From: an uncultured virus (IMG/VR IMGVR_UViG_3300025653_003319)
Lineage: Duplodnaviria; Heunggongvirae; Uroviricota; Caudoviricetes
Length of the DNA: 64,000 bases
Strand: one strand, 5' to 3'
Virus record (IMG/VR): IMGVR_UViG_3300025653_003319
The notes below the pieces were generated by a model that saw only the letters and a list, made by a program, of their open reading frames with translations, did not search any database and had not been told where the DNA came from. The translations under genes were made by a program, and so were the position numbers. Numbering within the stretch: the stretch's first letter is position 1; each line of letters begins with the position of its first letter. Below, piece after piece: positions 10,589 through 62,701 of this stretch.

Positions 10589-10598
10589 CTTTTCTCCT

Positions 10599-13686: not shown

Positions 13687-13710
13687 ATGTGTGTCCTAAT
13701 AATATACACA

Positions 13711-13718
13711 TATTTATC
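13711..13718 (-). promoter_or_regulatory. Late-promoter-like motif GATAAATA
   Basis: tatttatc on the + strand in the intergenic gap; AGGAC RBS precedes ATG 13686. Confidence 0.6.
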
Positions 13719-13735
13719 ATGATTTTAAATAGGTA

Positions 13736-16849: not shown

Positions 16850-17201
16850 CGAGATCTATGTCTATTAGTTTATGGACTTTGCGAGCCTTCCTTAACTTGA
16901 CATATTCTGCATGATAATCATTTGTGACCTCAAAGTACCTACTCAGAAGTTCGTCTAAGAATTCTGATAAGTCTTCAATTTGAATAGGGTTTTGGTAATT
17001 GTCAATGAGTACACTTTCTGTATACTCTTTTTCAATTAATGTATTGACAAATGTAATTAGTTCTTGTGATACTGTGAATGTACCACCATTTGTAGAAAGG
17101 ATAAGCCTCGTTTGAGTTTTAGATCTTAACGAGGCTATCTGATTATTTAATGTTTGCCTATAATTGGCGAATTCTAATGCTTTGGTTAGTCGCTCACTCA
17201 T
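16839..17201 (-). CDS. Hypothetical protein
   Basis: 120-aa ORF with AGGAC RBS and TAAATA motifs at 17221-17237. Confidence 0.7.
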   Translation of the reverse strand: MSERLTKALEFANYRQTLNNQIASLRSKTQTRLILSTNGGTFTVSQELITFVNTLIEKEYTESVLIDNYQNPIQIEDLSEFLDELLSRYFEVTNDYHAEYVKLRKARKVHKLIDIDLDDD

Positions 17202-18216: not shown

Positions 18217-20154
18217 TTATGTGTCTTGAGTAAACCTTTTTGTCCACAATGTAAGGCTGTATTTAACGCCTTCTTCTAGCGGTTCACACACATGAGGATG
18301 TGTAACTTGCCCAGGCCACATCAGCATTAAACCTCGTGGTATATGCCTGTTTGTATAATGCTGTCTAGGAAAAGTTAATTCAGCACCTTGATAATCGTCA
18401 TTTAATTTAACACTACCGCTGACCATACTAGCATCATTATGTAATGCTAATTCTGTTTGTGTATCTAAACTATATCGCATAGCAAAGAAGTCTCTTATAC
18501 CGTACATGCTCATTGGAGGCCAGTATGCTTCCAACTGCGGCCATATGTTTTTAGTTAAATGATTATCTAAGTACTTGTATAGACTTGGGCATAATGTCTT
18601 GATTCTTATTTCTTGTGCCGGATAGGCGTCATCTGGTCTTGGCTCCCAACCGCCTCTGGCATCACAGGCACCAATTAAGTCATCGCACATCTGAGGTGTC
18701 ATGTATTCAAATGCCACAATGTTATCGGCTACTGTCCATATTTTATTGTATCTGGCAATGTTAATTGGAATAACAGCACCCTGATTTAGTATTAAATTTA
18801 CTAATCTTGTGTATGCTTCTTTGTCTTGATCTCCACCATTACCATGTAGCACACAACTATAACAACCTGTTTCTGAATTGTAAACTTGATTATTATCTGA
18901 CACACTTAAACTATTTGCACTACCACTTACACATTGAAAAAGATAGTTTTCTACATCTAATCTAATATTGTATTTGCCACTTAAAAATAATTTTTGGTAA
19001 TAAAGTTGATCGTCATCTTTTTTCTTTATATCGTTTTTGAGCATTTCTTTTATAACAACTGCTCTCCCAATAAATACACCACTGTTTAAATATCTATTTC
19101 TTGTGTGTACTTGTGGAAATTGATCTGCAATAGTATTATCAGGCCATATTATTGGCTCTGCGGCAAATACCACATCTGCTCCAAACTGTTTAAATCTTTT
19201 TATTAATTCATTTTGATTATCGTTTATAACTACATCATAACCATCTACAAACATTACTATATCATGGTCGTCGACATTACGCAACCTACTTCTTAAATAA
19301 TGAACTTTGTGTCCGCCTCCGGGACCATCAGCCATTACACCACCTTCCCATGGCTCGCCAACACCTAACATTTCTAATTCTAGACCATGTACTTCACAAC
19401 TTTTAATTAAGTTTTCTGCTTTAAGACTTTCTGTTGCAACTGTAAGTAATTTAAAATTTTTCCATTCTTTAAATGTAGTTGCGGTTTCTGTGTCGGTTCT
19501 GCCAATTTCTGTTTCTCTTTTGTATGGATGAAAAATATTTTCTTTGTATGCTAGACCTTTTAATTTTGGTAATTCTTTAAACTGTGGATACTTGTCTAAC
19601 AAGGGACTGGTACCTAGCATCATTGGTAAGTATTCATCTGCTGGTATTAAGTTATTTAATCCTACATCATTTAATAACATTTGAGCACCTTGAACACTTA
19701 AGGCATATCCGGCTGTCCAATAGCAGTATCCAGGCGTTTCAAATAAATCATCAAAGCCTACCATTTCCATATCCATATTCCACTTAGACAAATAGACTAA
19801 ATCAAACTCATCAAGTCTTTCTTTTATCTGTGTTAAATTATATTTGTCACTGCTGTGAAATAGATCATCTTCTAAAACAACACCTGGCTCGCCGCTCTTA
19901 ACTATTCTAGACCATGCTACTATGTGACTAAGAATACAACCAACTTCTCCTGTAGTAAGCGGTCTGTCTTCTAATGGGTCTAACCAATTTTTGCATACTT
20001 GCATACCGCTTTTGAGTACTTTGCTATAATCGACTAAATTACCGTCTACTGCTTCAATTCTTTCATAATCTGTTATTTCAAGTTTAGCAAACAAATCAAT
20101 CATGTTTTGATTACGCTCAGGTCTTCTATTTAAATTTATATAATAATGTTTCAT
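18217..20154 (-). CDS. Three-domain fusion: COLGALT-like GT25 + PLOD-type glycosyltransferase + PLOD-type 2OG-Fe(II) lysyl hydroxylase
   Basis: GT25: YINLNRRPER, EAVDG, RPLTTGEVGCILSH, LEDD, YWTAGY, PADEYLP, DTET. PLOD GT: TVAT, LGVGEPWEGG, GGGHKV, FVDGYDV, FAAE, YLNSG, DDDQLYY, HGNG. Hydroxylase: MRY, LHND, YQGA, PGQVTHPH. Start 20154 overlaps the upstream stop (ATGA). Confidence 0.88.
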   Translation of the reverse strand: MKHYYINLNRRPERNQNMIDLFAKLEITDYERIEAVDGNLVDYSKVLKSGMQVCKNWLDPLEDRPLTTGEVGCILSHIVAWSRIVKSGEPGVVLEDDLFHSSDKYNLTQIKERLDEFDLVYLSKWNMDMEMVGFDDLFETPGYCYWTAGYALSVQGAQMLLNDVGLNNLIPADEYLPMMLGTSPLLDKYPQFKELPKLKGLAYKENIFHPYKRETEIGRTDTETATTFKEWKNFKLLTVATESLKAENLIKSCEVHGLELEMLGVGEPWEGGVMADGPGGGHKVHYLRSRLRNVDDHDIVMFVDGYDVVINDNQNELIKRFKQFGADVVFAAEPIIWPDNTIADQFPQVHTRNRYLNSGVFIGRAVVIKEMLKNDIKKKDDDQLYYQKLFLSGKYNIRLDVENYLFQCVSGSANSLSVSDNNQVYNSETGCYSCVLHGNGGDQDKEAYTRLVNLILNQGAVIPINIARYNKIWTVADNIVAFEYMTPQMCDDLIGACDARGGWEPRPDDAYPAQEIRIKTLCPSLYKYLDNHLTKNIWPQLEAYWPPMSMYGIRDFFAMRYSLDTQTELALHNDASMVSGSVKLNDDYQGAELTFPRQHYTNRHIPRGLMLMWPGQVTHPHVCEPLEEGVKYSLTLWTKRFTQDT

Positions 20155-20723
20155 CGCCAATGTGGTCCTTCTACCCAAGTTACTAAACTGTGTCGTAATC
20201 CGCTGGTTACTGGAGTTACTCTATGCCTGTGAAAACTAGGAAATACAATTACGGAACCTTTATTGAATGCTCCATCTGGTAATGCCGGCAACGTATTATC
20301 AAATTCAAACTTACCACCCTCGTATTCACTAGGGTCTGTTAATTGAAATATTATACTAAGTTTTCTATGAAATGCTCTGCTTTCGGCCCAGTCTACATCA
20401 TGGTGCCAATCATACTTACCTGGATTGTCTGGGTCGCCAATATACTTTGTAAACTGTATATCGTTTACATATCGTAAATCTAAATCAAATGAATCTCTGT
20501 TTGCCTGGTTGGCGTAGTGCCAAATTTCTTTGGTTATTGCTTCTTCTGTTTTTGGATTGAGCCAACGTATTTCGCTTTTGCGATACGTTTCGTCATGTGT
20601 TGCATTTTCAAAACCAATAACTGCATCACGTGGTTCATAGTTTTCTAAAGCATAATTAACAATGTAATCACACCAATCAGAACTTAATGCTGAATCAAAA
20701 AATAGCCAATAGTCTCCTTTCAT
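20151..20723 (-). CDS. 2OG-Fe(II) oxygenase, prolyl-4-hydroxylase/PKHD-like
   Basis: RKSEIRW, IQFTKY, YDWHHD (HxD), RKLSII, YEGG, FPSFHRHRVTPVTSGLRHSLVTWVEGP. Confidence 0.9.
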   Translation of the reverse strand: MKGDYWLFFDSALSSDWCDYIVNYALENYEPRDAVIGFENATHDETYRKSEIRWLNPKTEEAITKEIWHYANQANRDSFDLDLRYVNDIQFTKYIGDPDNPGKYDWHHDVDWAESRAFHRKLSIIFQLTDPSEYEGGKFEFDNTLPALPDGAFNKGSVIVFPSFHRHRVTPVTSGLRHSLVTWVEGPHWR

Positions 20724-46858: not shown

Positions 46859-49800
46859 TAGTATCCACTTCCACTTGAACCACTGCTACTGCTACTGCTA
46901 CTGCTACTGCTACTGTTTGTTGTAGATGATTTATTAATTACGTTGCCTTTCAATTGTTTTAAATTTGCTGAAGATAGACTTTTAACTACTTCTACATTAT
47001 CCACTGTTGCTGTAGAAAAGAATAATTCATCTGATGCCGCTCTAACTTGATATAAATCTCCAAATATAGATTCGGACTTACTAGGCACAATTACTACTGA
47101 TGCTATTGCTTTACCTAGTTCCTGATGAATGTACGCACTTAATTCTGAGAAATAAAATGTTTCACCAAAGTCCCAGTTTTCTACATTAAAATAAGTGTCA
47201 ATTAATTCTAACACCGCACTTCTAACTTCTGCATCTGTAGTTGTACTTCCTGGTAGTTTTACAACTTTAATTTTTGCTTGTAATTCTGGTTCTGCGTCAT
47301 TGCCAAATAATAATTTAAATTTACCACTGCTGTAAACTAATTGATCACTAACACTCTTAAATTCATCTAAGCCTGCAAAATCTTGTGCAAGTTGTTCTGA
47401 AGTTGGTGCACTAGGCAATATACTAGTACCGCCATTTTTATAACTTAGCATTGCTTGATAATACGATTTAGTAAGCATAAACATTTCAACAACATTGCTG
47501 ATACTAGGATCTATTCTAACATCACTTGGAGCAATGTGTTGCCATTCAAATGAACATTTTCTTGGATTTGCCTGTAATGTGTTTTGCTCAAAACTTCTAC
47601 CTACTTTTACATTGTACTGGTTGTTTTCTGTTAGTACAATCATTTTAGGTGTTGTTAAGTCATTGATTAATTCATATACTTTAGGTAAAAGCGATCTTGG
47701 AAAAACTAATTTGTGATTAAGTTTACCTAAATTATTTTTTAGATATTTTTCTGCTACACTTAAATCTTTTACAATAATCAAATCAAAATCTGTAAATGGT
47801 GTTTTGTTATCTGGGTCACTACCTGGAGCAACTGTGTCTAATACATAATCAACTGATATTTCTGTTTCAGTTGCAAAATTTAATATTTTGAATTTTGCTG
47901 GTCTTTCGTATGTATAGCCATCTAAGTCAGTGTATTGCTCAAAGAAAACAAAGTCTGTACTACCTACAAACTTGTCAAATAAGTCTGGATCATCTGGAAA
48001 ACCATCATAGTCGCTGTCGACAGGTTTAACAACAACTTTTGCCGGATCGGCAAAGCCGTCACCATATCTGTATGAATCCACAATTTCAAATTGCAGTGGT
48101 TTGTCTAATGACTCTTTGACGTTTTTATAAACTACCTGCAATTTATCTGCATGTTTAAATCCGTTCCATCTGCTACTTAAACTGTCAAAGTCTGAAATTT
48201 TTAAACTTGTGGTTGACGTCAAATCAATAAATCCTTCTGATGCGGAATCTCCTACCTCAAATGTAGTTGTGGTTGCATTACCTGTATAAGTTTTATAACT
48301 ACTTGAACCTGTGTCGTAATTAACATAAGCAATATTACCGTTTGCTCCACCAATAATAGATGTACCAAATTTACTTAATGGTATAGTAATACCACTCGGC
48401 AATGCTGATAATTTTGCACTATTTAATTTTACCACTGCTTTACCAGTTGTTGCTGATATTGGATCTACTGCTATTGTTGTAGATACTGCTGGTGCAAAAT
48501 CACCTTGGCTATAATCTGCTGTGGGCGACACTGATGCTTCACCGTTGACCAGTAAACCAAAATTACTAATAAATCTTATTTCTAAATCTTTTGCTTTTGT
48601 GTCTCTGCTTCTTAAAATTATTTCTGGACTGTTTCCTACATTTGGAGTATATGTTGCATTTGTAGATTCTAATTGCCAACTATCACCTATATCATCTAAA
48701 TTTGTATCAACCCAGTTATATGTTTCTACCAGTTCTGGTTTGAAGTTTGCTGTGGTTAATGCGATAGTATCCTTTAATACCCTTCCTGTTTTACTGTCAA
48801 ATGTTTTTTCATCACTGGAAAAATAAAATTTTATATCTTTGAGACTTTCAAATATAATTCTGGTACCTCTTGTAGTTACTGTGTAATTTGAAATATTTGT
48901 TGTACTGTTAGTACTATTGTATTCAAATTTCATTAACCAACTAGCACCGCTGGTAAGATCCGGATTAAAGTCTGCATTTTTCTGTAAATTACTATTGTCT
49001 ATAACATACCAGTGTGTAATATTACTTCCACCTGGTCTAAAATTATATCCTATACCAAAATCCTCTTTAGCCTTTATTCTTGTATCAAATGCGTTGCCTA
49101 TATCTGTTTCTAGACTATTAGAATTTAATGTAGGTATAATTTCTGTGGCTCTCCATGCATTTGGAATTTCTTTGTTTAATTTTACGACGCCTTCTGTGAC
49201 ACTTAGTAAATTTGTCGGAACGCCATTATTTGTAATACTTGTAATAGTTGCTAATTCTTCTTGTGTTGGATCGTTTGGATTTTTAAATTTTATATAAGAG
49301 CCGGCTTGTATAATTCTATTTTCGTTTACACTATTGTTTAATGTAGTTCTTATGCCGCCATCTAATCTAGTAAAATAACCTGTGTTATTTTTATTTTTAC
49401 TAGGCTGGGTAACCCATGTGATATCTTTATTGTTTGATGTCAAGTCAAATGCTAATGCATCTAAGCCTTTATGTAATTTCCTATAATCATCGTATACAAA
49501 GTTTTGTAAATTTACATCTTTAGTAATATTAGCAACATCCTCTTTTAAAATTTGCATTGCTGTTCTACTTGTACCAAATGTCAAATAAGTGTCTTTATTT
49601 TCTATGTCTTTGTATAATGCCCCATCGTCTGCAAATGATGTGACACTACTAAATCTTCCTGTTGGGTCTTCGATATCAATATATCTACTATGACCTGCAT
49701 GGGTTCTATTTGTAGATTTAAGTTTTAATATGTTTACACTTTGACTCAGTGGAAATACATTATAGTCTTGAGCACTGACCATTCTATTTTGTGTATAATA

Positions 49801-51069
49801 TGTTTGTGGTGCTCTTCGTTTAATGCTTTGTAAAGTTTCTGCGGCTGAACCATTTGAAACTGTGCCTTTTAATGACATCCTTAGAGTGAGTCTGTGTAAT
49901 TCACCTTTTCTGTTATAATAAGGTAATACTAATTCTTTGTTTTGAAAATCTGCTGGTCTAATAGATAAGTTTTCGCCAATGCTGGTTCTGTAATAAATTC
50001 TAAAAATTCCAGAAGGTATGTTTGCAAAATTACCGTCTGAGAATCTTATTCTCACACCGTCGTCAAATAAGTTGTCAATTGCATATAAGTTTCTGGATTC
50101 TAGACTAGTTGCATTATATAATAAAGTCTGTCCTTGAAGATTGCTGACTTTTTGCCAAGTAAGTTGGTTAACAGCATTATTATCCATTTGATGCACAAAT
50201 ACATCTGTTTCGTTTATGTTAGCAACCGGTATATCTACTGTTCTGTTAGGCAATGCCCTTTCAAAAATATAATCTTCAAAACTTAATACACCCTGCTTAA
50301 ACATCATAAAAAATCCTGTATAAGGACTTTCTAAACCTCTTTTATCATTTCGATAACAAATTCTCATTTGACTATAAATGTCTGGTTGTGCTTCTTTGAA
50401 AACACCGTTTTCTATATGTGTACTAACAAATTCAAAAGGTACACTAACACCATTTACAGTTGCACTGGTTGGGAATATAGGGGTTGAGCCTATTTCATTA
50501 TTGAACCCATATATCTGTGTAGCAATACCGCCTACTGTTCCTTCAACAATAGGTTTTGTAAAAGGGTTTGTTACAGAAAATGCACTATTTAAAACTGTAA
50601 TAAATTGATCAAAACTATTTGCATTTGTTGGATCATTCCAGTCTATTCTGATATCTTGTAAACTTTCGCCCGAAGCGTCTAGTAAAGGTTCGTCTGTTTC
50701 TATACTATCAATTTTTACTAATCCACTTGCTGGTATATTTCTTTTAGGAGCATAACCTAGCATATCTGCTAAACGTAAAATACTGTCTCTACTTTCTGCG
50801 GTAGCAAGGAAGTTTTCCCTGGTATTTAAATCTGCTCTGAATGATAAACTTTGCGAAAGATATGCTAATAATTCTATAATAGCAATAAATTCAGAACTCT
50901 CAATGTAGTCATTGAAAGATTCTGGATAATTTTCTCTTATGTAATTAAGCATAGATGTACGCATTGTACTAAAATCATATGCCTTGAAACTTACTTGGGT
51001 GAATGCCTGATAGGCTAATTCCCAGTCCTCTGCGGCAAATAGATTTTGATTTCTATTGCTAATTGACAT
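46858..51069 (-). CDS. gp6: Baseplate wedge subunit, T4 gp6-like, extended
   Basis: YDFSTMR, FNDYIESSE, ELLAY, ENFLATAE, LGYAPKR, FSDGNFANIP, QNRMVSAQDY; directly follows gp25. Confidence 0.85.
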   Translation of the reverse strand: MSISNRNQNLFAAEDWELAYQAFTQVSFKAYDFSTMRTSMLNYIRENYPESFNDYIESSEFIAIIELLAYLSQSLSFRADLNTRENFLATAESRDSILRLADMLGYAPKRNIPASGLVKIDSIETDEPLLDASGESLQDIRIDWNDPTNANSFDQFITVLNSAFSVTNPFTKPIVEGTVGGIATQIYGFNNEIGSTPIFPTSATVNGVSVPFEFVSTHIENGVFKEAQPDIYSQMRICYRNDKRGLESPYTGFFMMFKQGVLSFEDYIFERALPNRTVDIPVANINETDVFVHQMDNNAVNQLTWQKVSNLQGQTLLYNATSLESRNLYAIDNLFDDGVRIRFSDGNFANIPSGIFRIYYRTSIGENLSIRPADFQNKELVLPYYNRKGELHRLTLRMSLKGTVSNGSAAETLQSIKRRAPQTYYTQNRMVSAQDYNVFPLSQSVNILKLKSTNRTHAGHSRYIDIEDPTGRFSSVTSFADDGALYKDIENKDTYLTFGTSRTAMQILKEDVANITKDVNLQNFVYDDYRKLHKGLDALAFDLTSNNKDITWVTQPSKNKNNTGYFTRLDGGIRTTLNNSVNENRIIQAGSYIKFKNPNDPTQEELATITSITNNGVPTNLLSVTEGVVKLNKEIPNAWRATEIIPTLNSNSLETDIGNAFDTRIKAKEDFGIGYNFRPGGSNITHWYVIDNSNLQKNADFNPDLTSGASWLMKFEYNSTNSTTNISNYTVTTRGTRIIFESLKDIKFYFSSDEKTFDSKTGRVLKDTIALTTANFKPELVETYNWVDTNLDDIGDSWQLESTNATYTPNVGNSPEIILRSRDTKAKDLEIRFISNFGLLVNGEASVSPTADYSQGDFAPAVSTTIAVDPISATTGKAVVKLNSAKLSALPSGITIPLSKFGTSIIGGANGNIAYVNYDTGSSSYKTYTGNATTTTFEVGDSASEGFIDLTSTTSLKISDFDSLSSRWNGFKHADKLQVVYKNVKESLDKPLQFEIVDSYRYGDGFADPAKVVVKPVDSDYDGFPDDPDLFDKFVGSTDFVFFEQYTDLDGYTYERPAKFKILNFATETEISVDYVLDTVAPGSDPDNKTPFTDFDLIIVKDLSVAEKYLKNNLGKLNHKLVFPRSLLPKVYELINDLTTPKMIVLTENNQYNVKVGRSFEQNTLQANPRKCSFEWQHIAPSDVRIDPSISNVVEMFMLTKSYYQAMLSYKNGGTSILPSAPTSEQLAQDFAGLDEFKSVSDQLVYSSGKFKLLFGNDAEPELQAKIKVVKLPGSTTTDAEVRSAVLELIDTYFNVENWDFGETFYFSELSAYIHQELGKAIASVVIVPSKSESIFGDLYQVRAASDELFFSTATVDNVEVVKSLSSANLKQLKGNVINKSSTTNSSSSSSSSSSSGSSGSGY
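46882..46915. repeat. (ACTGCT)n microsatellite encoding the poly-Ser tail of gp6
   Basis: About 5.7 copies; reads AGT AGC repeats on the minus strand, giving a Ser run followed by GSSGSGY. Confidence 0.9.
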
Positions 51070-51440
51070 TATGTATCTCCATTAAATTCTCTTTCTAACC
51101 TAACCTCTAATACATCTTGACTTTGATCTACATTATATTCTAAATAAAGTTCTACTTGTAAAAAATGATCTGTATTTGTAATTTTTACATCAAGTAATTC
51201 TACTCTTGGGTCATTACCAACTATAGTGTTGCATTCTTCTTGTACATCTTGCATTGTTAGATTATCAAACGGCTCCATTAGAACATCGTGTATAATACTA
51301 CCATATTCTGGTCTCATAACTCTTTCCCCTTTACGAGTCTGAAAATGATTTAATAAATCTTGTTTAACTAAATCTAAATCCGTAAGTGTGTAAGGTGGTT
51401 TTTTCTTGTTATCTGTACTGAATCCAATAAATGTTGCCAT
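51069..51440 (-). CDS. gp25: Baseplate wedge subunit gp25-like
   Basis: LVKQDLLNHFQTRKGERVMRPEYGSII..EP..DPRV. Confidence 0.92.
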   Translation of the reverse strand: MATFIGFSTDNKKKPPYTLTDLDLVKQDLLNHFQTRKGERVMRPEYGSIIHDVLMEPFDNLTMQDVQEECNTIVGNDPRVELLDVKITNTDHFLQVELYLEYNVDQSQDVLEVRLEREFNGDT

Positions 51441-52102: not shown

Positions 52103-52120
52103 TTAATATCTCCTGCCAGT

Positions 52121-52152
52121 TATTTATCTCTTTTCTTATATCAATTAAATAA
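52121..52152. promoter_or_regulatory. Divergent pair of late-promoter-like TAAATA motifs
   Basis: GATAAATA on the minus strand (52121-52128) and TTAAATAA on the plus strand (52145-52152) between divergent genes. Confidence 0.45.
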
Positions 52153-52182
52153 TTACAAGTACAACTATTACTAGAGGAAATT

Positions 52183-52728
52183 ATGAAATATGTTTTAGCA
52201 GTTGCACTGGCAGACGAACTCGAAGGATTGCAAGGCAACTATAACACAATTATTACAGGTGTTGGTAAGATTAACGCCACACTTAAACTCACTGAGTATT
52301 TGACAAATAATCCAGATACAGAACTGGTTATCAATTATGGTACTGCTGGAGGAGTAGACCCTAATATGAAAGGCATGTTGCACATTGGAAAATTTGTACA
52401 AGCAGATATGGATTGTAGAGAATTTGGCTTTGACAAATATCAAACACCATTTGAAACAAATACCCAAGAAATTGTGGTTGACCACAAAGGATTTACATGT
52501 TATACTCAAGATAAGTTTGCTACAACTAAACCTGATGGTTATTGCAATGTAGTTGACATGGAGGCTTATGCAATCGCTAAAGTGTGTATGCATTTTGGCG
52601 TAGACTTTAAATGTTTAAAGTTTATAAGCGATATAATCGGACAAGGAGATCAGACATCCGAATGGCAGGCGAATAAAGCATTAGGTGTCGAGATGTTCGA
52701 GTCCACATTAAAGGATTTAATAAAATAA
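52183..52728 (+). CDS. mtnN: 5'-methylthioadenosine/S-adenosylhomocysteine nucleosidase (compact)
   Basis: TGVGKINAT, INYGTAGG, QADMD, TQDKF, VDMEAYAIAKVC, KFISD. Confidence 0.9.
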   Translation: MKYVLAVALADELEGLQGNYNTIITGVGKINATLKLTEYLTNNPDTELVINYGTAGGVDPNMKGMLHIGKFVQADMDCREFGFDKYQTPFETNTQEIVVDHKGFTCYTQDKFATTKPDGYCNVVDMEAYAIAKVCMHFGVDFKCLKFISDIIGQGDQTSEWQANKALGVEMFESTLKDLIK

Positions 52729-52730
52729 AA

Positions 52731-54716
52731 ATGAACGAATTTGATAAAAACTTTCACATAAACTTTAGTCCACTTTACATTGCCGCAGTTGTGATGTTTT
52801 TTCTATTATGGGCAGTAGAGGCTAAAGCAGACGAGATAGAAGAAATTGTTGTAACTGCTCAACAAGAAAAAGTGGTCAAAGCAGACCCAATAACTAGCGG
52901 TAGTTTAATAAGTGCTATTATGCCAGCCTTTACTTGGAATCCAGGTGGCTATGGAGGCTTTGTAGGTTTCAATGAAAGAGGTGCTCAAACATCTCACACT
53001 TCAGTTTATGTGAATGGTATCCCGGCAAATGATCCAGGGGCAAGTTGGTATGACTTTGGACATGACTTTGCAAGTGGACAAACAGTAAAAGTAATTACTG
53101 GTGCAAATGGTGTTATATATGGCTCAGGCAGTATGGCAGGATCAGTACTTATACAGGATACAATAGAAAGAGGTATTACACTTAGAGTAGAAGATGGTAT
53201 AAACTATGTCAGAGTTGCTCCAATAGATCAGTTAGAGTTTAGTACGGTTAAAGATGGCATGGATAGTGTTCGTAATGACAATGAAGAGGAAGATAATTAC
53301 GAAAACAAAACTGCTAGGTTTAATGTAGATGCAGGAGACTTTACTATTGTAGGTAAGTTTACTGAATACGAATACGACTATGACAACTGTTATGATTATA
53401 ATTGGGGTCAAAGCAATGACTGTTTACAAGACGGCCAAAGATATAATATTGCTATTAGAAATGATTATATTACAATAGGTAGAAACTATAATACTGCTGA
53501 GTATTTCACAGTAGAAGATCCTACATATTTAAATGAGGGTTATAGAGATTATTTTAGAATAGGCAATCAAGTAGAACTCAGTCAAAGTTTAAATGTTGCA
53601 TTTGGTATAGATGTAGAAAAACAGTATTACAATACAAGCAGTTGGCAAAATGTGGAAGGATCTGAAACAGTTTTAGTAAGTGATACAAGACCAGGTTCCT
53701 TTACAGATGAAAATTTAACATATAATGATGGTACATTATTACCTTTGTGGAACGGTACAATAGAACCTGATCTTGATAATGCATATGAAGTTATACAAGG
53801 TAACGGTGTATATACTCTAACACAAATAGATGAAAAGTATTCAGACGAAAATGGAGGTATATACTTTCAAGCCAATGCTAACTTTATACTAAATTATAAC
53901 TTTGGTATTAGACTGGGCAACGATGATCAGAATGCTCTTAGACTGGGTATTGAAAAAGGCGACTGGTTCTTTAATATAGGAAACAGTTTTAGAAAGCCTA
54001 ATCTATATGAAAAGTTTGGCGATGGATATGTACAAGGTAATGAAGAACTAGAACCTGAAAAAGGTGTAGGCATTGAATTAGGATATGGTGTGCTAAGTGT
54101 GTTTATGTATGATTTTGAAGAATCAATAGAGTATGTTCCAGGATATTATACAGACAATATTACAACATCATTGGAATTAGATGCTGAAGCATCTGTTAAT
54201 ACAGATGGTACATATGGTGGTTGTGTTTTAGATCCTAATTATACAGCATCAGATGGAATGCCATTAGGTTGTGCATATGAAATTGTAGAAGATAATAATC
54301 CAGTTTACACTATGGCTACATATTCTAACACAGGAGAGTACACCACAGCAGGTGTTAGATATGCAAATAACTTTGGTCCTGTTTTTATAATGTTAAAATA
54401 TACTGATACAGACCAAACTAGAGTACCTAAATTTGCTGGTGTATTACAATACAGCGAAGACTTTTTTGATGTAAACTTTAGATTAAAGTACGCATTTAAT
54501 TTAGATAGAGCACCTGGTCCCTATGATGTATTAGAAGAAGGGCAGGAGTATTTGGAAGATCTAAATAAGTTAAACTTATATGTAACCAAAGTGTTTACAA
54601 ATGGCTTAACACTTTCTTTTAAAGCAGAAAACATAACAGATGAAATTGTAGAGGTTGTTCCTTTTTATAATACACAAGGTAGAGAAATTTACTTGACATT
54701 ACATTATAACTGGTAA
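52731..54716 (+). CDS. TonB-dependent outer-membrane receptor (BtuB-like architecture)
   Basis: Signal peptide ending AKA; TonB box EEIVVTA; plug motifs RGAQTSHTSVYVNGIP and GANGVIYGSGSMAGSVLI; barrel motifs SFRKPNLYE, GNEELEPEKG, ENITDE; C-terminus GREIYLTLHYNW. Confidence 0.9.
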   Translation: MNEFDKNFHINFSPLYIAAVVMFFLLWAVEAKADEIEEIVVTAQQEKVVKADPITSGSLISAIMPAFTWNPGGYGGFVGFNERGAQTSHTSVYVNGIPANDPGASWYDFGHDFASGQTVKVITGANGVIYGSGSMAGSVLIQDTIERGITLRVEDGINYVRVAPIDQLEFSTVKDGMDSVRNDNEEEDNYENKTARFNVDAGDFTIVGKFTEYEYDYDNCYDYNWGQSNDCLQDGQRYNIAIRNDYITIGRNYNTAEYFTVEDPTYLNEGYRDYFRIGNQVELSQSLNVAFGIDVEKQYYNTSSWQNVEGSETVLVSDTRPGSFTDENLTYNDGTLLPLWNGTIEPDLDNAYEVIQGNGVYTLTQIDEKYSDENGGIYFQANANFILNYNFGIRLGNDDQNALRLGIEKGDWFFNIGNSFRKPNLYEKFGDGYVQGNEELEPEKGVGIELGYGVLSVFMYDFEESIEYVPGYYTDNITTSLELDAEASVNTDGTYGGCVLDPNYTASDGMPLGCAYEIVEDNNPVYTMATYSNTGEYTTAGVRYANNFGPVFIMLKYTDTDQTRVPKFAGVLQYSEDFFDVNFRLKYAFNLDRAPGPYDVLEEGQEYLEDLNKLNLYVTKVFTNGLTLSFKAENITDEIVEVVPFYNTQGREIYLTLHYNW

Positions 54717-54792: not shown

Positions 54793-55056
54793 ATGAAAAC
54801 TGATAAAATTATTAAGAATATTGTATCTACTTTTAAAGATCTAGAGGAAAAGGCCAGTCACATTAATTCGGCAAGTGGTAAGACTGTAATTCACTCTATG
54901 ATACAAAGAGATAGGAGAGGCAAGTTTGATAGTTTGGGATTTTATAATTCTAAAACTAAAAGATATGCCTTAGTTTTTATAAGAGATTACATTGCAAGAA
55001 ATGTAGATGTAATTCCTGAACTGGATGACATGAAAAGAGTTATCACTGTAAAATAA
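54793..55056 (+). CDS. Hypothetical small basic protein
   Basis: 87 aa; AGGAC RBS; GTAAATAC at 54755-54762. Confidence 0.65.
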   Translation: MKTDKIIKNIVSTFKDLEEKASHINSASGKTVIHSMIQRDRRGKFDSLGFYNSKTKRYALVFIRDYIARNVDVIPELDDMKRVITVK

Positions 55057-55262
55057 TGACCGACCACTTAACAAAAAAATTCACAAACAATACCTTAGAA
55101 GAAGATTTAAGAATTATGCTCGTTGAAAAAAACAACGAGTGTAATGCACTTAGAGAAGAAATAAAAATGCTTAAAGTGTCTGTTGCTGAAGAGTCAGATG
55201 CAAAGTATAGAGCATTTGTTAAAATTTCTGATTTACAAAGAGAATTAAATTCGACTAAATAG
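55056..55262 (+). CDS. Hypothetical coiled-coil protein
   Basis: 68 aa; TAATG coupling to the upstream ORF; heptad-like Leu/Ile spacing. Confidence 0.6.
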   Translation: MTDHLTKKFTNNTLEEDLRIMLVEKNNECNALREEIKMLKVSVAEESDAKYRAFVKISDLQRELNSTK

Positions 55263-56063
55263 GTTGGCTTCGGCTACACGTCTATTGTATAATAATGTGC
55301 TGATTCCATTACCTCTTTTAATAGGTATTTCAGTAAACTCCATAAAGTATGTAGCACAATTATAATTTTCACTATTGAGTGCTTTTATTAATTTGCTAGT
55401 TGTAAATTTTTTCATACCTATATCAAATGCTAGAGATATTAATGCAACTGTTTGATTTGTATTAAGCGGTACTTTGACTCTGTCTACTACCACACTAAAA
55501 GCACGGGTCAAATCAAGTTTATACAGCCTATCGATAAATTCTGGTTTTGCACCATTTACTAGACTATAAACATAAAAATTATTTATTTGGTCATATACAG
55601 CAATTGATTTTACTGCTAATTCATAATCAACTCTACCATTTTTAATAATAGTTGCTCCTTGTAAGTAAGCATGATTATTTCTAATAATTTTTCTTACATC
55701 AGGATGATCTAAATCCAGTTTACTATAATCATTGAATGCTATCATTTTGTTTGATATTTCTAGAGAACTCATTTTATGAGATATACCAATGTATGTTTCG
55801 TTTTGTATTTCAGTTGGCACAAGATATGTATTAAAATTACCAATTATAAAATCATTTGCATGTATTAAAATTTGAGTCGTATCTACTAAATTAGGCAGAA
55901 TAAATTTAGGTACTACTGTATTTGTTTTAGAATATACTCCAGTAAGATAATCTGTGCCTTCAAAATGTGATCCTATATAAAAACCACCTGGGTTACAATA
56001 ACTTAACGGTACATTATCCGATGGATCCAACTGCCCTATATTTAGATCATCTATGTATGCCAT
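55245..56063 (-). CDS. Baseplate-associated GH24 lysozyme-like protein, possibly degenerate
   Basis: VPLNTNQTVALISLAFDIG, SKLIKALN, LYNRRVAEANLF; YIGISH matches the TIGYGH position; start 56063 from the TAATG overlap with gp5. Confidence 0.7.
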   Translation of the reverse strand: MAYIDDLNIGQLDPSDNVPLSYCNPGGFYIGSHFEGTDYLTGVYSKTNTVVPKFILPNLVDTTQILIHANDFIIGNFNTYLVPTEIQNETYIGISHKMSSLEISNKMIAFNDYSKLDLDHPDVRKIIRNNHAYLQGATIIKNGRVDYELAVKSIAVYDQINNFYVYSLVNGAKPEFIDRLYKLDLTRAFSVVVDRVKVPLNTNQTVALISLAFDIGMKKFTTSKLIKALNSENYNCATYFMEFTEIPIKRGNGISTLLYNRRVAEANLFSRI

Positions 56064-57673
56064 TATTTGTTTGTCCTTGAAGGACTTGGTTCTATACCAG
56101 GCCATCTTGTAATAATAGTATTAACTTTTTTATCAAATAAAAGCAATGGCGTTAATGGACTTTTGCCTTGTTCTGCTCTTTTAGGATAACCACCTGATAG
56201 TATACCTGCTAATTCAAACGATAGTAATGTGTTTGTTGTTTCGGTTGTTTTTATGCCACTCATGTTAGGTGCAACAGGCAAAGGTGGCAAAGTCGGCAAT
56301 GTTGTTGTTTGAATATCAACTGTGTCGCCAGCATTGATGTATGTTTTTGTTAGACCCATTATATGTGTATGAGTTGTTGAAAATATATCTACATCTCCCA
56401 TTGACTTGATTTGTAATGTAGGTTCAGAGGGCGGATTATTTGCAGAGGCTGGTGCGGCTATTTCTATTTGTGTGCCTGCCATATGTACTTTGTTATCACC
56501 AAATAATTGTAAACTACCTGGCATTGTGGTACCAGCGGTTGTAAATAGTCTAGGTCTTGCTTCTATACTTATAGCATTAGAATACATATTAATATCTTTC
56601 ACACCTTCGATGTTCACACTACCGTTATTTAATACACTCTGATATACTGGATTTAAGTATGCTAATTCTTCTACATCTACAATACCTTTTTGTGTTTCGT
56701 TAGGGTCGTTTGGATGTGGATAGTTGTTAGCGGCTTTGATATTAACATTTTGTCCTGCTTCTATATTTACATCCTTGTCCGCTCTGAGGTTCATATCACC
56801 TGATGTTCTTACATTGTAACTGCCTGTGCCGTAAATGTCTATGTTACCATCGGCATCTATTTCTATATGCCCTGTACCTGACTTATTAGATATGTATATT
56901 AAATTTTCTGCGTCATTGAGTACTATTTGATTTCCGCCACCGGTTCGTATTCTTATAAATGGATTATCGTTACTATCATCCATTACAAATTGATGTCCAG
57001 CATGTCTTAGTCCTGGATCTTTAGGATTCTTGGGACCTGGTGTTAATATACCATATACTTCACTTGCGCCTTCCCGCCTAGCACCACTAGTACTTTGCCC
57101 TCTTATAAAATCATCTATCAGTCCTTGTGAAAAAATAACACTTTCTAATTCGTGCATTGATCTGTCATCTGCTTTTACTTTGACACTTTTAACAGTACCG
57201 CTGTATTCTACATTATGATCCTTGATATTTGCAGACATGTTTGCTTCATTAACAGGTGTCACTCCACCTATGGATTTTCCTGCTGGAATACCTGGTACCA
57301 TAAAATTTCTATTTGTTTGAAATAAGCACCCTAAGATTATTCCGGAGAGTTGGCCTTCGTATTCATAAAAACCTACTACAACTTGATTACCATTATCAGG
57401 TGGTCTCATCCACATTCCATAACTGGTTTGTGCAACGTCAGGTGCATTTTTATCGCCTGTGCCTCTCTCAGGAGTTGCACCAGCAAATGGTGATGTCCAT
57501 ATACAATCAAATAAGGCACTAGTACTTTTGTTTGTGCCTGTTAATTCTGGTATATGCACTAAGAGTATTCCATTTCTAGAAGGATCGTCTGCACTAATTA
57601 CTGTGCCAAAATACAGCGACAAACCTTTACTTGCATTGGATGTGATTTTTTCTTTTATGCGGTTTGGTATCAT
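56063..57673 (-). CDS. gp5: Baseplate central spike, gp5/VgrG-like (OB fold + beta-helix)
   Basis: GTVISADDPSRNG.L.V.IP, SYGMWMRPPD.G..V.V, GHQFVMDD, IRIRTGGGNQI, repeated G.(I/V).I strands. Confidence 0.85.
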   Translation of the reverse strand: MIPNRIKEKITSNASKGLSLYFGTVISADDPSRNGILLVHIPELTGTNKSTSALFDCIWTSPFAGATPERGTGDKNAPDVAQTSYGMWMRPPDNGNQVVVGFYEYEGQLSGIILGCLFQTNRNFMVPGIPAGKSIGGVTPVNEANMSANIKDHNVEYSGTVKSVKVKADDRSMHELESVIFSQGLIDDFIRGQSTSGARREGASEVYGILTPGPKNPKDPGLRHAGHQFVMDDSNDNPFIRIRTGGGNQIVLNDAENLIYISNKSGTGHIEIDADGNIDIYGTGSYNVRTSGDMNLRADKDVNIEAGQNVNIKAANNYPHPNDPNETQKGIVDVEELAYLNPVYQSVLNNGSVNIEGVKDINMYSNAISIEARPRLFTTAGTTMPGSLQLFGDNKVHMAGTQIEIAAPASANNPPSEPTLQIKSMGDVDIFSTTHTHIMGLTKTYINAGDTVDIQTTTLPTLPPLPVAPNMSGIKTTETTNTLLSFELAGILSGGYPKRAEQGKSPLTPLLLFDKKVNTIITRWPGIEPSPSRTNK

Positions 57674-61852: not shown

Positions 61853-62701
61853 ATGGTCGCAAAAGTTAAATACTTGAACAACAAAGATTTACTTAAACAA
61901 ATACATCTCAGTAAGATGTCCTTTTGTTGGGTTAAATCACCCCAATACGATTATCCAGACATTATTATTAATTTAGAAGATGAAATTACTGATGCAGTGA
62001 TACTCGAAGCAAAACAAAACAAAGCAGGAAAAATGAAAGATATTGCTTATAAAAAAGCAGTTGAAAATTACGACGGACCTGCTAATAAAAAGCCTAGACA
62101 AAAAGACTTTTTAGTTGCTCTAGAGGATATTGCAGACGAAGATGTAGTAGTAAGGCAAATGACTTACGAGCATATTCCATTAGAGCCAGGCAGAAAAAAG
62201 AATCCTAGAAACGAAGCAGAAACAAAAGCAAAAGCAAACTTTCCACCATTTAAGCATTATGGCTTGATAAACGGTACATGGGAAGAGGTTGCTAGGAGTC
62301 ACTGGAAAGGCGGTCCTAAGAGTGGTAAGTTTTCTGTTGATCATGGTAGCATTACAAACGAATTAGGTAAGATGTACCTTAAGTTAGTAGATAGATATAG
62401 TCAAAGATCTAATTGGAGAGGCTATACTTATGTTGACGAAATGAGAGGACAGGCATTACTACAACTTGCAATGATTGGATTACAATTCAATGAAGCAAAA
62501 TCGGATAATCCATTTGCTTATTATACAGCCGCAATTACAAATAGTTTTACAAGAGTGTTAAACATAGAAAAGAAAAATCAAAACATCAGAGACGACATAT
62601 TAATCGACTCTGGGCACTTACCAAGTTATGGCAGACAGATAGCACACGAAAATGAAATTAAGGCTTTAAGAGAAGCAAAAAATTCAGAATCGGATGCCTA
62701 A
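61853..62701 (+). CDS. gp55: Late-transcription sigma factor, T4 gp55-like
   Basis: YLNNKDLL, NWRGYTYVDEM, FNEAKSDNPFAYYT..NSF; sits upstream of gp47/gp46 as in T4-like phages. Confidence 0.85.
   Translation: MVAKVKYLNNKDLLKQIHLSKMSFCWVKSPQYDYPDIIINLEDEITDAVILEAKQNKAGKMKDIAYKKAVENYDGPANKKPRQKDFLVALEDIADEDVVVRQMTYEHIPLEPGRKKNPRNEAETKAKANFPPFKHYGLINGTWEEVARSHWKGGPKSGKFSVDHGSITNELGKMYLKLVDRYSQRSNWRGYTYVDEMRGQALLQLAMIGLQFNEAKSDNPFAYYTAAITNSFTRVLNIEKKNQNIRDDILIDSGHLPSYGRQIAHENEIKALREAKNSESDA

What the first reader, a model, noticed from the sequence alone, without database searches (positions are those of the whole stretch)
52731..54716. Phage-encoded TonB-dependent outer-membrane receptor
Seen: an intact ORF with signal peptide, TonB box, compact plug, barrel motifs and an aromatic C-terminus, flanked by phage baseplate genes. 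It has two Cys-pair loops (NCYDYNWGQSNDC, GCVLD...LGC) and two long acidic inserts, so the barrel itself looks short for 22 strands. Known: such receptors import B12, siderophores or metals and are common phage receptors, but are rarely phage-encoded. Inference: either an auxiliary uptake gene (cobalamin or iron) or a decoy that replaces the host receptor or occupies TonB to block competing phages. It implies a Gram-negative host.
Basis: partly seen in the sequence, partly recalled or inferred. Interest (0 to 1): 0.84.

Follow-up and report, generated by a model that had tools for sequence, protein, structure and literature searches.

The report
Phage-borne BtuB-like outer-membrane transporter
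A giant aquatic phage carries its own intact copy of a bacterial outer-membrane nutrient gate, most like the vitamin B12 receptor BtuB; it belongs to a large phage-only gene family that related phages swap like a cassette, so these viruses seem to re-equip the surface of the cells they infect.

Summary
The ORF at 52731-54716 (+) is real, intact and phage-borne. It has a signal-peptide-like leader, a TonB box, a Pfam Plug domain and a C-terminal Trp. It aligns end to end with BtuB-type TonB-dependent transporters (hhalign probability 100%, E = 3e-65 with E. coli BtuB as master). BtuB is the only solved relative found by sequence.

The two long inserts are expansions of BtuB's extracellular loops L5 and L8. 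Every membrane-spanning segment of BtuB has an aligned counterpart, so the barrel is not short.

The gene belongs to a family seen only in viral or metagenomic contigs: 302 IMG/VR stretches, none in 185,579 species genomes and none in 50,697 deposited phage genomes. It is under purifying selection (dN/dS 0.13-0.22) and sits at three conserved phage loci. Close relatives of this phage carry very different alleles between conserved flanks.

Metatranscriptome contigs cover it together with the upstream nucleosidase gene.

The function is inferred, not shown. I favour TonB-powered import of a scarce micronutrient, most likely a corrinoid, because related phages encode a cobalamin-dependent radical SAM enzyme. 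Surface remodelling or exclusion remains a serious rival.

An October 2026 preprint already reports TonB-dependent receptors in huge phages.

The parts
52731..54716 (+). Gene for the phage-encoded BtuB-like TonB-dependent transporter (661 aa, P0001)
   Evidence: Intact ORF. Plug domain. hhalign with BtuB-like profiles gives probability 100%. dN/dS is 0.13-0.22.
52731..52829 (+). Signal-peptide-like leader (aa 1-33; hydrophobic core aa 14-28; A-K-A|D)
   Evidence: Hydropathy scan. It aligns over the BtuB signal peptide. The same leader occurs on an unrelated 154-aa ORF in L032. No dedicated predictor was run.
52839..52859 (+). TonB box EEIVVTA (aa 37-43)
   Evidence: Aligns with BtuB DTLVVTA, 4 of 7 identical. 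A TonB-box-like core is present in 92 of 93 complete family ORFs.
52830..53171 (+). Plug (hatch) domain, aa 34-147
   Evidence: PF07715, 34.5 bits against a cut-off of 23.9. 113 of the 136 BtuB plug columns align. dN/dS is 0.05-0.18.
53172..54713 (+). Beta-barrel domain, aa 148-661, ending in Trp
   Evidence: Collinear with the BtuB barrel; every inter-loop segment is aligned. PF00593 is not detected in this protein, but is found in 47-79% of members of sibling viral clusters.
53259..53423 (+). Loops L2-L3 equivalent (aa 177-231) with invariant acidic/aromatic motifs and the invariant Cys220-Cys231 pair
   Evidence: N184, E186, D188, Y190, Y217, D218, C220 and C231 are invariant in 31 of 31 sequences. 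They align with BtuB Q191, D193, D195, F197, Y229 and D230. The assignment of the BtuB residues to the calcium cage is recalled.
53643..53822 (+). Insert 1 (aa 305-364): expansion of extracellular loop L5 (11 aa in BtuB, 70 aa here)
   Evidence: hhalign gap after BtuB mature residue 327. BtuB loop ranges come from PMC7360065. The insert is absent from the 550-590 aa family members. dN/dS is 0.12-1.29.
54150..54314 (+). Insert 2 (aa 474-528): expansion of extracellular loop L8 (17 aa in BtuB, 73 aa here), holding Cys498 and Cys514
   Evidence: hhalign gap after BtuB mature residue 450. dN/dS is 0.26-0.46.
52183..52728 (+). Upstream co-oriented gene for an MTA/SAH-type nucleosidase (181 aa); its stop lies 3 nt before the transporter's ATG
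   Evidence: PF01048, E = 4.5e-13. NF004168 'nucleosidase', 78.5 bits, below the cut-off of 129. RNA-library contigs bridge the junction in 4 of 4 runs.
52103..52182 (.). Divergent intergenic region; probable start of the nucleosidase-transporter transcript
   Evidence: In 4 of 4 RNA-library runs the contigs begin at 52175-52185, and none covers 52111-52174. This is a weak hint only.
54793..55056 (+). orf87, a small gene of unknown function that travels with the cassette at this locus
   Evidence: Present in all 16 baseplate-locus cassettes. Not detected at the same locus in the 53 more distant phages. No family hit.
55056..55262 (+). orf68, a small conserved gene of the baseplate region (not specific to the cassette)
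   Evidence: Also present in most distant phages that lack the transporter at this locus.
46858..51440 (-). Left flank: gp6-like baseplate wedge (46858-51069) and gp25-like wedge (51069-51440)
   Evidence: phrog_10646, E = 0; phrog_43, E = 5.8e-18. The best deposited relative is the Pseudomonas phage PA5oct group at 40-41%.
55245..57673 (-). Right flank: lysozyme-domain protein (55245-56105) and gp5-like baseplate hub (56063-57673)
   Evidence: PF00959, E = 4e-12. phrog_13211, E = 2.4e-27.

Best explanation
The gene encodes a working TonB-dependent outer-membrane transporter of the BtuB lineage, which the phage makes in the infected cell.

Inferred sequence of events:
1. It is transcribed together with the upstream nucleosidase gene.
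2. It is exported through Sec by its leader and inserted into the host outer membrane.
3. Its conserved TonB box couples it to the host's own TonB-ExbBD, since the phage has none.
4. It then imports a scarce micronutrient during the long infection of a roughly 360-kb phage.

The substrate I think most likely is a corrinoid (vitamin B12 type). This would feed cobalamin- and SAM-dependent chemistry that these phages invest in heavily.

The enlarged, disulfide-stapled surface loops L5 and L8 evolve fast, and whole alleles are exchanged between phage lineages.

Shown here: the gene is intact, phage-borne, constrained, BtuB-like in architecture and present in RNA libraries.

Inferred only: export, membrane insertion, TonB coupling, import and the substrate.

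My odds: about 0.9 that it is a real transporter-fold protein made by the phage, about 0.6 that it imports something, and about 0.35-0.4 that the substrate is a corrinoid. The confidence given for this explanation (0.4) is for the whole statement, substrate included.
For: Architecture:
- Plug domain above Pfam's cut-off.
- End-to-end profile alignment with 28 BtuB-like proteins (probability 100%, E = 1e-45, 521 columns).
- The same with E. coli BtuB as master (E = 3.2e-65, aa 11-661 against 1-614).
- All ten inter-loop barrel segments are aligned.
- TonB box conserved, in 92 of 93 complete family ORFs.

BtuB is the nearest known relative:
- 6 of 6 PDB sequences matched at E <= 1 are BtuB.
- 14 of 14 nearest non-family proteins tested score best on TIGR01779 TonB-B12.
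- Two divergent family members hit TIGR01779 at E of about 1e-13.
- Invariant N184/E186/D188/Y190 and Y217/D218 align with BtuB Q191/D193/D195/F197 and Y229/D230 in loops L2/L3.

Constraint: dN/dS is 0.13-0.22 overall, 0.05-0.18 in the plug and 0.02-0.08 in the mid barrel.

Expression: 6 RNA-library runs hold the stretch. In 4 of 4 runs laid, contigs start at 52175-52185 and bridge the nucleosidase-transporter junction.

Links to cobalamin and SAM:
- Related large records G007 and G008 encode a 616-aa B12-binding plus radical SAM protein. Its best PDB match is the cobalamin-dependent methylase TokK, E = 2.3e-81.
- The transporter's neighbour here is an MTA/SAH-type nucleosidase.
- At the replication locus, SAM synthetase, adenine phosphoribosyltransferase and the same nucleosidase lie 2-6 kb downstream.
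- In a third phage type, a CobS-like AAA+ protein (phrog_249, annotated 'porphyrin biosynthesis') lies 2.9 kb downstream.
- The 90-kb record holds at least five radical-SAM-like ORFs.
Against: No experiment, no structure model and no substrate test were possible.

- The protein fails NCBI's BtuB equivalog models by a wide margin (19.9 and 20.3 bits against cut-offs of 599.7 and 836). The 14 nearest outsiders also fall below those cut-offs, so 'BtuB-like' does not fix the substrate.
- Only 10 of 33 cobalamin-contact residues listed in PMC7360065 are identical, against 21% identity overall. That is no real enrichment.
- Two of the five cage aspartates are not matched: D179 aligns with S179 and D241 with G226.
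- No cobalamin riboswitch was found in the window or in 10 related loci.
- The B12-dependent radical SAM gene has no homologue in this phage's own 90-kb record, which is only 25% of the genome.
- The AAA+ gene next to the transporter at the replication locus is not CobS by NCBIfam.
- PF00593 is not detected in this protein.
- Allele turnover is extreme: 41-63% identity between conserved flanks. That is what one expects of a surface determinant in an arms race, and it fits the exclusion rival at least as well.
- RNA-library contigs cannot exclude carried-over DNA.
Confidence: 0.4

Rival explanations
1. Surface remodelling or superinfection exclusion. The phage-made barrel changes the receptor landscape of the infected cell, competes for host TonB, or stands in for a host receptor. 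Competing phages or bacteriocins then adsorb or enter less well. Transport is secondary or absent.
For: - The gene is the most diverged of the genes shared with a close relative: 52%, tied lowest of 59 ORFs, against a median of 86%.
- Alleles of 41-44%, 62-63% and 99-100% identity sit between flanks that stay 74-95% identical. The drop in identity begins and ends at the gene's borders.
- Alleles are shared across phage lineages and across loci.
- The fastest-evolving parts are the two enlarged surface loops (dN/dS up to 1.29).
- The preprint 10.64898/2026.10.24.761521 proposes this role for huge-phage outer-membrane proteins, citing lambda Lom blocking LamB (passages read).
Against: - The plug, the TonB box and the loop L2/L3 acidic motifs are invariant or nearly so, and dN/dS there is 0.02-0.18. 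A passive decoy would not need these, although titration of TonB would need the box.
- At the ancestral locus the gene lies among replication and nucleotide/SAM metabolism genes, not among known exclusion genes.
- Fast surface loops are also expected for a true importer that other phages exploit.
Confidence: 0.25
2. It is an importer, but for another scarce substrate: an iron chelate, haem, another metal or another vitamin. This would serve the phage's many iron-dependent enzymes.
For: - The 90-kb record encodes at least five radical-SAM/SPASM-like ORFs and at least six 2OG-Fe(II) oxygenase domains.
- The best NCBIfam hit of the plug region is the haemoglobin/transferrin/lactoferrin receptor subfamily, though weakly (E = 1.6e-4).
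- All BtuB-like relatives fall below the BtuB equivalog cut-off.
Against: - No siderophore, haem or metal receptor structure was matched by the family profile at E <= 1; only BtuB was.
- All 14 nearest outsiders score best on the B12 model, ahead of the siderophore and haem models.
- No iron-related partner genes lie next to it.
Confidence: 0.2
3. Artefact: host DNA joined to phage DNA by misassembly, or a decaying pseudogene without function.
For: Metagenome assemblies can be chimeric, and the record is a fragment (25% complete).
Against: - The same gene order occurs in 16 independent IMG/VR loci of this lineage and at 100% identity in 5 loci.
- Its G+C equals that of the flanks.
- 94 further loci carry the family inside a phage replication module.
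- No relative was found in 185,579 species genomes in two pattern scans.
- The frame is intact and dN/dS is 0.13-0.22.
Confidence: 0.02

Closest known systems
Escherichia coli BtuB, the TonB-dependent cobalamin transporter (PDB 1NQE, 2GSK, 3RGM)
   Same: - The domain order is the same: signal peptide, TonB box, plug, barrel, C-terminal aromatic residue.
- It is the only solved relative found by sequence.
- The profile alignment is global (E = 3.2e-65).
- Part of the loop L2/L3 acidic and aromatic motifs is matched by invariant residues.
   Different: - Identity is only 21%, and the protein fails the BtuB equivalog models.
- Loops L5 and L8 are enlarged to 70 and 73 aa, and L9 is cut to 6 aa.
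- The plug is about 22 aa shorter.
- It has two Cys pairs.
- It has no cobalamin riboswitch.
- It is encoded by a phage and has no close cellular relative.
[quoted passage not shown]
   Same: Both are phage-encoded outer-membrane barrels with a signal peptide in phages of more than 200 kb. The preprint also reports aquatic examples and transcription in natural communities.
   Different: - The passages I read describe a gut Lak-phage receptor and give counts by habitat.
- They do not mention BtuB (0 occurrences), plug domains (0 occurrences), this family's loci or allele swapping.
- I could not check whether this family is in their Supplementary Table 7.
'TonB-dependent receptor protein' annotated in pelagiphage Polarivirus skadi (PMC10504331; passage read)
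   Same: A phage ORF annotated with this name and lying among structural genes.
   Different: - It is in a small podovirus, and the authors read it as a hint to the phage's adsorption receptor, not as an outer-membrane protein made in the host.
- No match to any deposited phage genome was found with three family members, so it is not this family.
Phage devices that act on host TonB-dependent receptors or porins: lambda Lom (cited in the preprint), T5 Llp and the Cor proteins (recalled, not checked here)
   Same: They are made during infection and change what the cell surface offers to other phages. This is the model for the exclusion rival.
   Different: Those are small 8-stranded barrels or lipoproteins that bind or block a host receptor. 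None is itself a plugged TonB-dependent transporter.

Membership tests
TonB-dependent transporter (TBDT/TBDR) | Plug (hatch) domain, PF07715 | tested here: met
   aa 45-137, E = 3e-8, 34.5 bits against a gathering score of 23.9.
TonB-dependent transporter (TBDT/TBDR) | TonB box near the mature N-terminus | tested here: met
   EEIVVTA aligns with BtuB DTLVVTA, 4 of 7 identical. A core motif is present in 92 of 93 complete family ORFs. The position of the BtuB box is recalled.
TonB-dependent transporter (TBDT/TBDR) | 22-stranded beta-barrel (PF00593) enclosing the plug | tested here: inconclusive
   PF00593 is not detected at E <= 1. However, the profile alignment with BtuB-like barrels is end to end, and all ten inter-loop segments are aligned. 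PF00593 is present in 47-79% of members of sibling viral clusters. My own crude strand count depended on the threshold.
TonB-dependent transporter (TBDT/TBDR) | Sec signal peptide and C-terminal aromatic residue for outer-membrane insertion | tested here: met
   Hydrophobic core aa 14-28 and A-K-A|D; terminal Trp. This is read from the sequence; no predictor was run. Another branch of the family ends in YK, YR or YRP.
TonB-dependent transporter (TBDT/TBDR) | Energy coupling to TonB-ExbB-ExbD | not testable with these tools
   No TonB_C domain in 4 of 4 related phage records, so a host TonB would be needed.
BtuB, cobalamin transporter (NCBIfam equivalogs TIGR01779, NF007926) | Score above the curated equivalog cut-off | tested here: not met
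   19.9 bits against 599.7, and 20.3 bits against 836. Not filed as BtuB.
BtuB, cobalamin transporter (NCBIfam equivalogs TIGR01779, NF007926) | Calcium-binding cage of five aspartates beside the cobalamin site (PMC7360065; residue numbers recalled) | tested here: inconclusive
   D193, D195 and D230 align with invariant E186, D188 and D218, and Q191 aligns with invariant N184. D179 aligns with S179 and D241 with G226.
BtuB, cobalamin transporter (NCBIfam equivalogs TIGR01779, NF007926) | Conservation of cobalamin-contacting residues | tested here: inconclusive
   10 of 33 residues listed in PMC7360065 are identical, against 21% overall identity.
BtuB, cobalamin transporter (NCBIfam equivalogs TIGR01779, NF007926) | Cobalamin riboswitch upstream (usual in bacteria, not strictly defining) | tested here: not met
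   No Rfam match at gathering score in the window or in 10 related loci.
Huge-phage outer-membrane beta-barrel proteins (preprint 10.64898/2026.10.24.761521) | Encoded in a phage genome of more than 200 kb, with a signal peptide and a predicted barrel | tested here: met
   The record is 25% of an estimated genome of about 360 kb. Related records of 250.5 and 339.8 kb (66% and 91% complete) carry one family member each. The barrel is inferred by alignment only.

The most novel reading that the evidence does not exclude
A phage-only lineage of BtuB-derived transporters has evolved inside aquatic giant and T4-like phages for a long time. Some members, at 461-530 aa, would be smaller than any known TonB-dependent transporter. 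Coinfecting phage lineages exchange it as a cassette. It lets the virus bring its own vitamin gate, importing corrinoids to run phage-encoded cobalamin-dependent radical SAM chemistry and to keep the host's SAM cycle going. Its enlarged L5 and L8 loops are at the same time a moving target in phage-against-phage conflict.
Probability: 0.25. Interest if true: 0.8.

Novelty: new member of a known kind. Interest (0 to 1): 0.6.

Why it matters
- If the protein imports a vitamin or metal, infected cells in rivers, estuaries and the sea take up micronutrients through viral hardware. That bears on B12 and trace-metal budgets and on how giant phages sustain long infections.
- If it acts in exclusion, it is a new class of phage-phage weapon built from a nutrient gate.
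- The family is abundant: 517 protein clusters and 302 IMG/VR stretches.
- It offers compact, diverse natural variants of a well-studied transporter fold for structural and transport studies.
- Its allele swapping marks it as a hot spot of virus-host or virus-virus conflict.

Tried and rejected
- **Structure prediction.** There is therefore no AlphaFold strand count and no fold search.
- **My own strand predictor.** A predictor based on alternating hydrophobicity gave 9-23 strands for BtuB and 11-21 for this protein, depending on the threshold. I discarded it.
- **ESM Atlas.** It holds no model for P0001 or P0125.
- **Deposited phage genomes.** tblastn with P0001, P0131 and P0125, and megablast of 10.8 kb, found no match in 50,697 records.
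- **Species genomes.** Two pattern scans confirmed 0 relatives. These scans only see sequences that hold the patterns.
- **Promoter and terminator scans.** They found no more than chance would give: 28 against 27.8 promoter-like sites.
- **The T4 late-promoter word TATAAATA.** It does not mark this gene.
- **Cobalamin riboswitch.** None found.
- **TonB gene in the phage.** None in 4 records.
- **The AAA+ gene upstream at the replication locus.** It is not CobS by NCBIfam.
- **The window's two radical-SAM-like ORFs** (8906-10588 and 10599-12131). They have no PDB relative at E <= 0.1. The B12-radical-SAM protein of G008 has no homologue in this 90-kb record.
- **Two copies per genome (baseplate locus plus replication locus).** This idea could not be tested for this lineage. 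Its four fragments hold no UvsW-like helicase. The three large records of the other lineage hold one copy each.
- **Earlier findings of this scan.** Nothing relevant.
- **Host identification.** Not attempted beyond this, because the family has no close cellular relative to point to a donor.
Full report
**1.

The ORF 52731..54716 (+) is intact: ATG start, 661 codons, no internal stop. Its G+C is 0.340 against 0.342 for the window.
- Pfam finds a Plug domain at aa 45-137 (E = 3e-8, 34.5 bits, cut-off 23.9). It finds no barrel model.
- NCBIfam gives only weak hits, among them the C-terminal 97 residues against BtuB (E = 1.7e-4). All are far below the curated cut-offs.
- The leader has a hydrophobic core at aa 14-28 and an A-K-A|D site.
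- There are exactly four cysteines: 220, 231, 498 and 514.
- The protein ends in Trp.

**2. It is phage DNA, not host contamination**

The window is part of a 90,575-base IMG/VR virus record judged 25% complete, which implies a genome of roughly 360 kb.

The neighbours are phage genes:
- gp6-like and gp25-like baseplate wedge proteins on one side;
- a lysozyme-domain protein and a gp5-like hub on the other;
- further out, a late sigma factor (gp55-like) and gp47/gp46-like nuclease subunits.

The gp6-like protein is at best 40-41% identical to that of the Pseudomonas jumbo phage PA5oct group. Other matches are jumbo phages of Salicola, Agrobacterium, Sinorhizobium, Pectobacterium and enterobacteria.

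The same gene order recurs at 100% identity in 5 IMG/VR loci and at 99% in a sixth. It recurs in 16 of 16 loci of this lineage that reach far enough (gp6 >= 83% identical).

**3. What the protein is**

A profile of 31 family members (alignment A1) matched only BtuB among all PDB chain sequences. That was 6 of 6 distinct sequences at E <= 1, the best at 3.2e-4, in three collinear pieces.

Against 1.84 billion representative proteins, the profile found 1,659 proteins at E <= 1e-3 but only 37 at E <= 1e-30. There is a sharp gap: family members score 200 bits or more, and ordinary 590-700 aa receptors score 75 bits or less.

I tested 14 of those nearest outsiders. All 14 score best on TIGR01779 (TonB-B12), at 152-372 bits, below its cut-off of 599.7. 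Two divergent family members also hit that model at E of about 1e-13, and two others hit nothing.

A profile-profile comparison of A1 with 28 of the listed outsiders gave probability 100%, E = 1e-45 and 521 aligned columns from end to end. With E. coli BtuB added as master sequence, the result was probability 100%, E = 3.2e-65, aa 11-661 against BtuB 1-614, at 21% identity.

**4. Anatomy against BtuB**

I took BtuB's loop ranges from PMC7360065 (Methods passage read).
- The two long inserts fall in extracellular loops. L5 is 11 aa in BtuB and 70 aa here. L8 is 17 aa in BtuB and 73 aa here.
- L9 is shortened from 13 to 6 aa.
- The plug and all ten inter-loop stretches of the barrel have aligned counterparts: 29/40, 24/29, 30/34, 33/33, 51/61, 21/29, 24/28, 25/25, 26/26 and 10/10 columns.

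The alignment therefore gives no sign of missing strands. The strand labels are my inference from the standard topology. A 3D model could not be made.

The TonB box EEIVVTA aligns with DTLVVTA.

In loops L2 and L3, the family-invariant N184, E186, D188, Y190, Y217 and D218 align with BtuB Q191, D193, D195, F197, Y229 and D230. I recall these as part of the calcium 'aspartate cage'; the paper states only that five aspartates form it. D179 and D241 are not matched.

Of the 33 cobalamin-contact residues named in that paper, 10 are identical. That is hardly more than the overall 21%.

The inserts are no more acidic than the whole mature protein, which has 16% D+E and a net charge of -61.

**5. A large, phage-only family at conserved phage loci**

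- The word-indexed protein search gave 517 clusters at E <= 1e-3. All 120 listed come from metagenome-type sources. One source calls one of them 'outer membrane cobalamin receptor'.
- IMG/VR holds 32 close loci and, with a profile of divergent members, 302 confirmed stretches.
- Nothing was found in 50,697 deposited phage genomes with three different members.
- Nothing was found in one genome each of 185,579 prokaryote species in two pattern scans.
- The nearest ESM Atlas clusters are labelled 100% viral.

Of the 111 loci classified:
- 94 carry the gene between an AAA+ ATPase (phrog_1250) and a UvsW-like helicase. This is inside a replication module with gp32, UvsX, UvsY, MazG, SAM synthetase and adenine phosphoribosyltransferase.
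- 12 carry it in the baseplate position seen here.
- 5 carry a 461-490 aa form in a third setting. I annotated one of these, L107: it sits beside gp46/gp47, peptide deformylase, ClpP, an endolysin and a CobS-like AAA+ protein.

**6. The gene moves and is swapped**

Three large records of the helicase-locus lineage (250.5, 216.8 and 339.8 kb; 66%, 59% and 91% complete) hold one copy each. Where their gp6 is present, it is only 43% and 41% identical to the window's.

Between this record and the 250.5-kb record, 30 shared ORFs have a median identity of 47.5%. Yet the window's transporter is 85% identical to the allele of locus L008. L008's helicase is 93% identical to that of the 250.5-kb record.

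I built a tree of 74 non-identical complete family ORFs plus 6 outsiders. Incomplete ORFs and identical duplicates were left out.
- The family is one clade, with support 100 and a stem of 1.87 substitutions per column.
- The baseplate-locus alleles fall in at least 3 well-supported places among helicase-locus alleles.

In the 53 more distant phages found through gp6 (36-55% identity), no transporter was detected in any locus; in most of these gp5 and gp25 flank the site.

Within the window's own lineage, the flanking genes stay 74-95% identical. The transporter allele is 99-100% identical in 6 loci, 62-63% in 5 and 41-44% in 5. Nucleotide identity to one such relative is 0.78-0.97 in the flanks and 0.50-0.68 in the gene (apart from one 200-nt window that is mostly alignment gap). 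The change occurs at the gene's borders.

Against record G009, the transporter is the least conserved of 59 shared ORFs: 52%, tied with a 60-aa ORF, median 86%. Against G010 it is 63%, with 11 of 63 ORFs lower.

Whether this lineage also keeps a helicase-locus copy is unknown.

**7. Selection and expression**

Against seven alleles, dN/dS is 0.13-0.22 overall:

| Region | dN/dS |
|---|---|
| Plug | 0.05-0.18 |
| Middle of the barrel | 0.02-0.08 |
| L5 insert | 0.12-1.29 |
| L8 insert | 0.26-0.46 |

The stretch is held by 14 DNA runs labelled freshwater, estuary or seawater. It is also held by 6 metatranscriptome runs, all labelled freshwater and dated 2017, so possibly one campaign.

In the 4 RNA-library runs laid, all 30 bins are covered. 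In 4 of 4 runs a contig begins at 52175-52185, just before the nucleosidase ATG at 52183, and runs across the junction into the transporter. No contig covers 52111-52174.

Contigs cannot show strand or level, and DNA can be present in such libraries. This is a weak hint of a shared transcript, not proof.

**8. How it most likely works**

Shown:
- a constrained, phage-borne gene with the full order of parts of a BtuB-type transporter;
- a conserved TonB box;
- no TonB of its own in 4 of 4 related records.

Inferred: Sec export, insertion into the host outer membrane, coupling to host TonB-ExbBD, and import of a scarce nutrient.

I favour a corrinoid for the following reasons.
- BtuB-type proteins are the only near relatives.
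- Records G007 and G008 encode a B12-binding radical SAM enzyme. PF02310 scores 44.5 bits and PF04055 scores 47.8 bits. TokK is the best PDB match, E = 2.3e-81. G006 has a weak hit of 23 bits.
- The gene travels with SAM-cycle salvage genes. Here that is an MTA/SAH-type nucleosidase directly upstream. At the helicase locus it is SAM synthetase, adenine phosphoribosyltransferase and often the same nucleosidase.
- These phages are rich in radical SAM enzymes.

The counter-evidence is real.
- The BtuB equivalog models are failed.
- Ligand-contact residues are not enriched.
- There is no riboswitch.
- The B12 enzyme is absent from this record's 90 kb.
- The pattern of allele turnover is typical of surface determinants in conflict.

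The rivals are exclusion or receptor remodelling, and import of iron or another cofactor for the many Fe-dependent enzymes.

**9. What is known**

The full-text searches for phage-encoded TonB-dependent or BtuB-like receptors found one directly relevant work: the preprint 10.64898/2026.10.24.761521.
- It reports a transcribed 22-stranded TonB-dependent receptor in Lak phages.
- It proposes receptor interference or transport (passages read).

Two papers on marine and aquatic jumbo phages, PMC9123017 and PMC12619734, do not contain 'TonB', 'outer membrane' or 'cobalamin' (term search).

PMC10504331 annotates a 'TonB-dependent receptor protein' in a pelagiphage (passage read).

So the kind is now known. 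In what I could read, this BtuB-derived, phage-only family, its three loci and its cassette-like exchange are not described.

**10. Limits**

- There is no structure model, no signal-peptide predictor, no host and no experiment.
- Identities from tblastn are for the aligned parts only.
- The pattern scans of genome collections see only sequences that hold the chosen patterns.
- Several BtuB residue roles are recalled rather than taken from a tool or a paper.

Noticed in passing
window 25577-46858 (-): A single uninterrupted ORF of 7,093 aa lies directly downstream of the gp6-like baseplate gene. It is 88% and 75% identical in two related records and only about 32% identical over half its length in a more distant one. 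It is probably a giant tail or baseplate-attached fibre protein, and it is among the longest phage ORFs I know of.
   Followed up: partly
window 6223-17201 (-), and beyond the window at G000:C1:71919-81089 (L035): Two clusters encode at least five radical-SAM/SPASM-like proteins, several 2OG-Fe(II) oxygenases, an aminotransferase, a UDP-glucose-dehydrogenase-like protein and many unknowns. Several are only 55-66% identical between otherwise close phages, so they are hypervariable like the transporter and a tail-fibre-like gene. What they make is unknown.
   Followed up: partly
L032:8001-8465 (+): A 154-aa ORF in another viral contig starts with almost the same leader as the transporter (MNEFDKNF..SPL..ALVMFF...) but continues as an unrelated small protein. 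It sits next to an ORF whose sequence looked to me like a radical-SAM queuosine-type (QueE-like) enzyme; this was by eye and not tested. The leader appears to be a reusable export module in these phages.
   Followed up: no
Loci L036-L101 (helicase-locus alleles of 517-541 aa): This branch of the family ends in ...YK...YR or ...YRP instead of an aromatic last residue. The window's branch ends in ...Y[KN]W. That is unusual for proteins inserted by the outer-membrane assembly machinery.
   Followed up: no
Loci L088, L098, L104, L105, L107: Family members of only 461-490 aa still carry a Plug domain. If they fold as plugged barrels, they would be much smaller than BtuB (594 aa mature).
   Followed up: partly
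window, whole: The T4 late-promoter word TATAAATA occurs 3 times against 14.9 expected; all 100 shuffles had at least 3. It is depleted, although the phage has a gp55-like late sigma factor at 61853-62701.
   Followed up: no
L036:4768-6172 and L044:6091-6162: tRNA genes lie between the recombination genes and the AAA+ gene just upstream of the transporter in some helicase-locus phages: four in L036 and one in L044. None was found in the window's 90-kb record.
   Followed up: no
window 18217-20178 (-): One ORF matches glycosyltransferase family 25 and the PLOD-type glycosyltransferase domain in Pfam, and matches a PHROG family annotated as 2OG-Fe(II) oxygenase along its whole length. This recalls collagen lysyl hydroxylase/glycosyltransferase enzymes. 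It lies next to tail-fibre-like genes.
   Followed up: no
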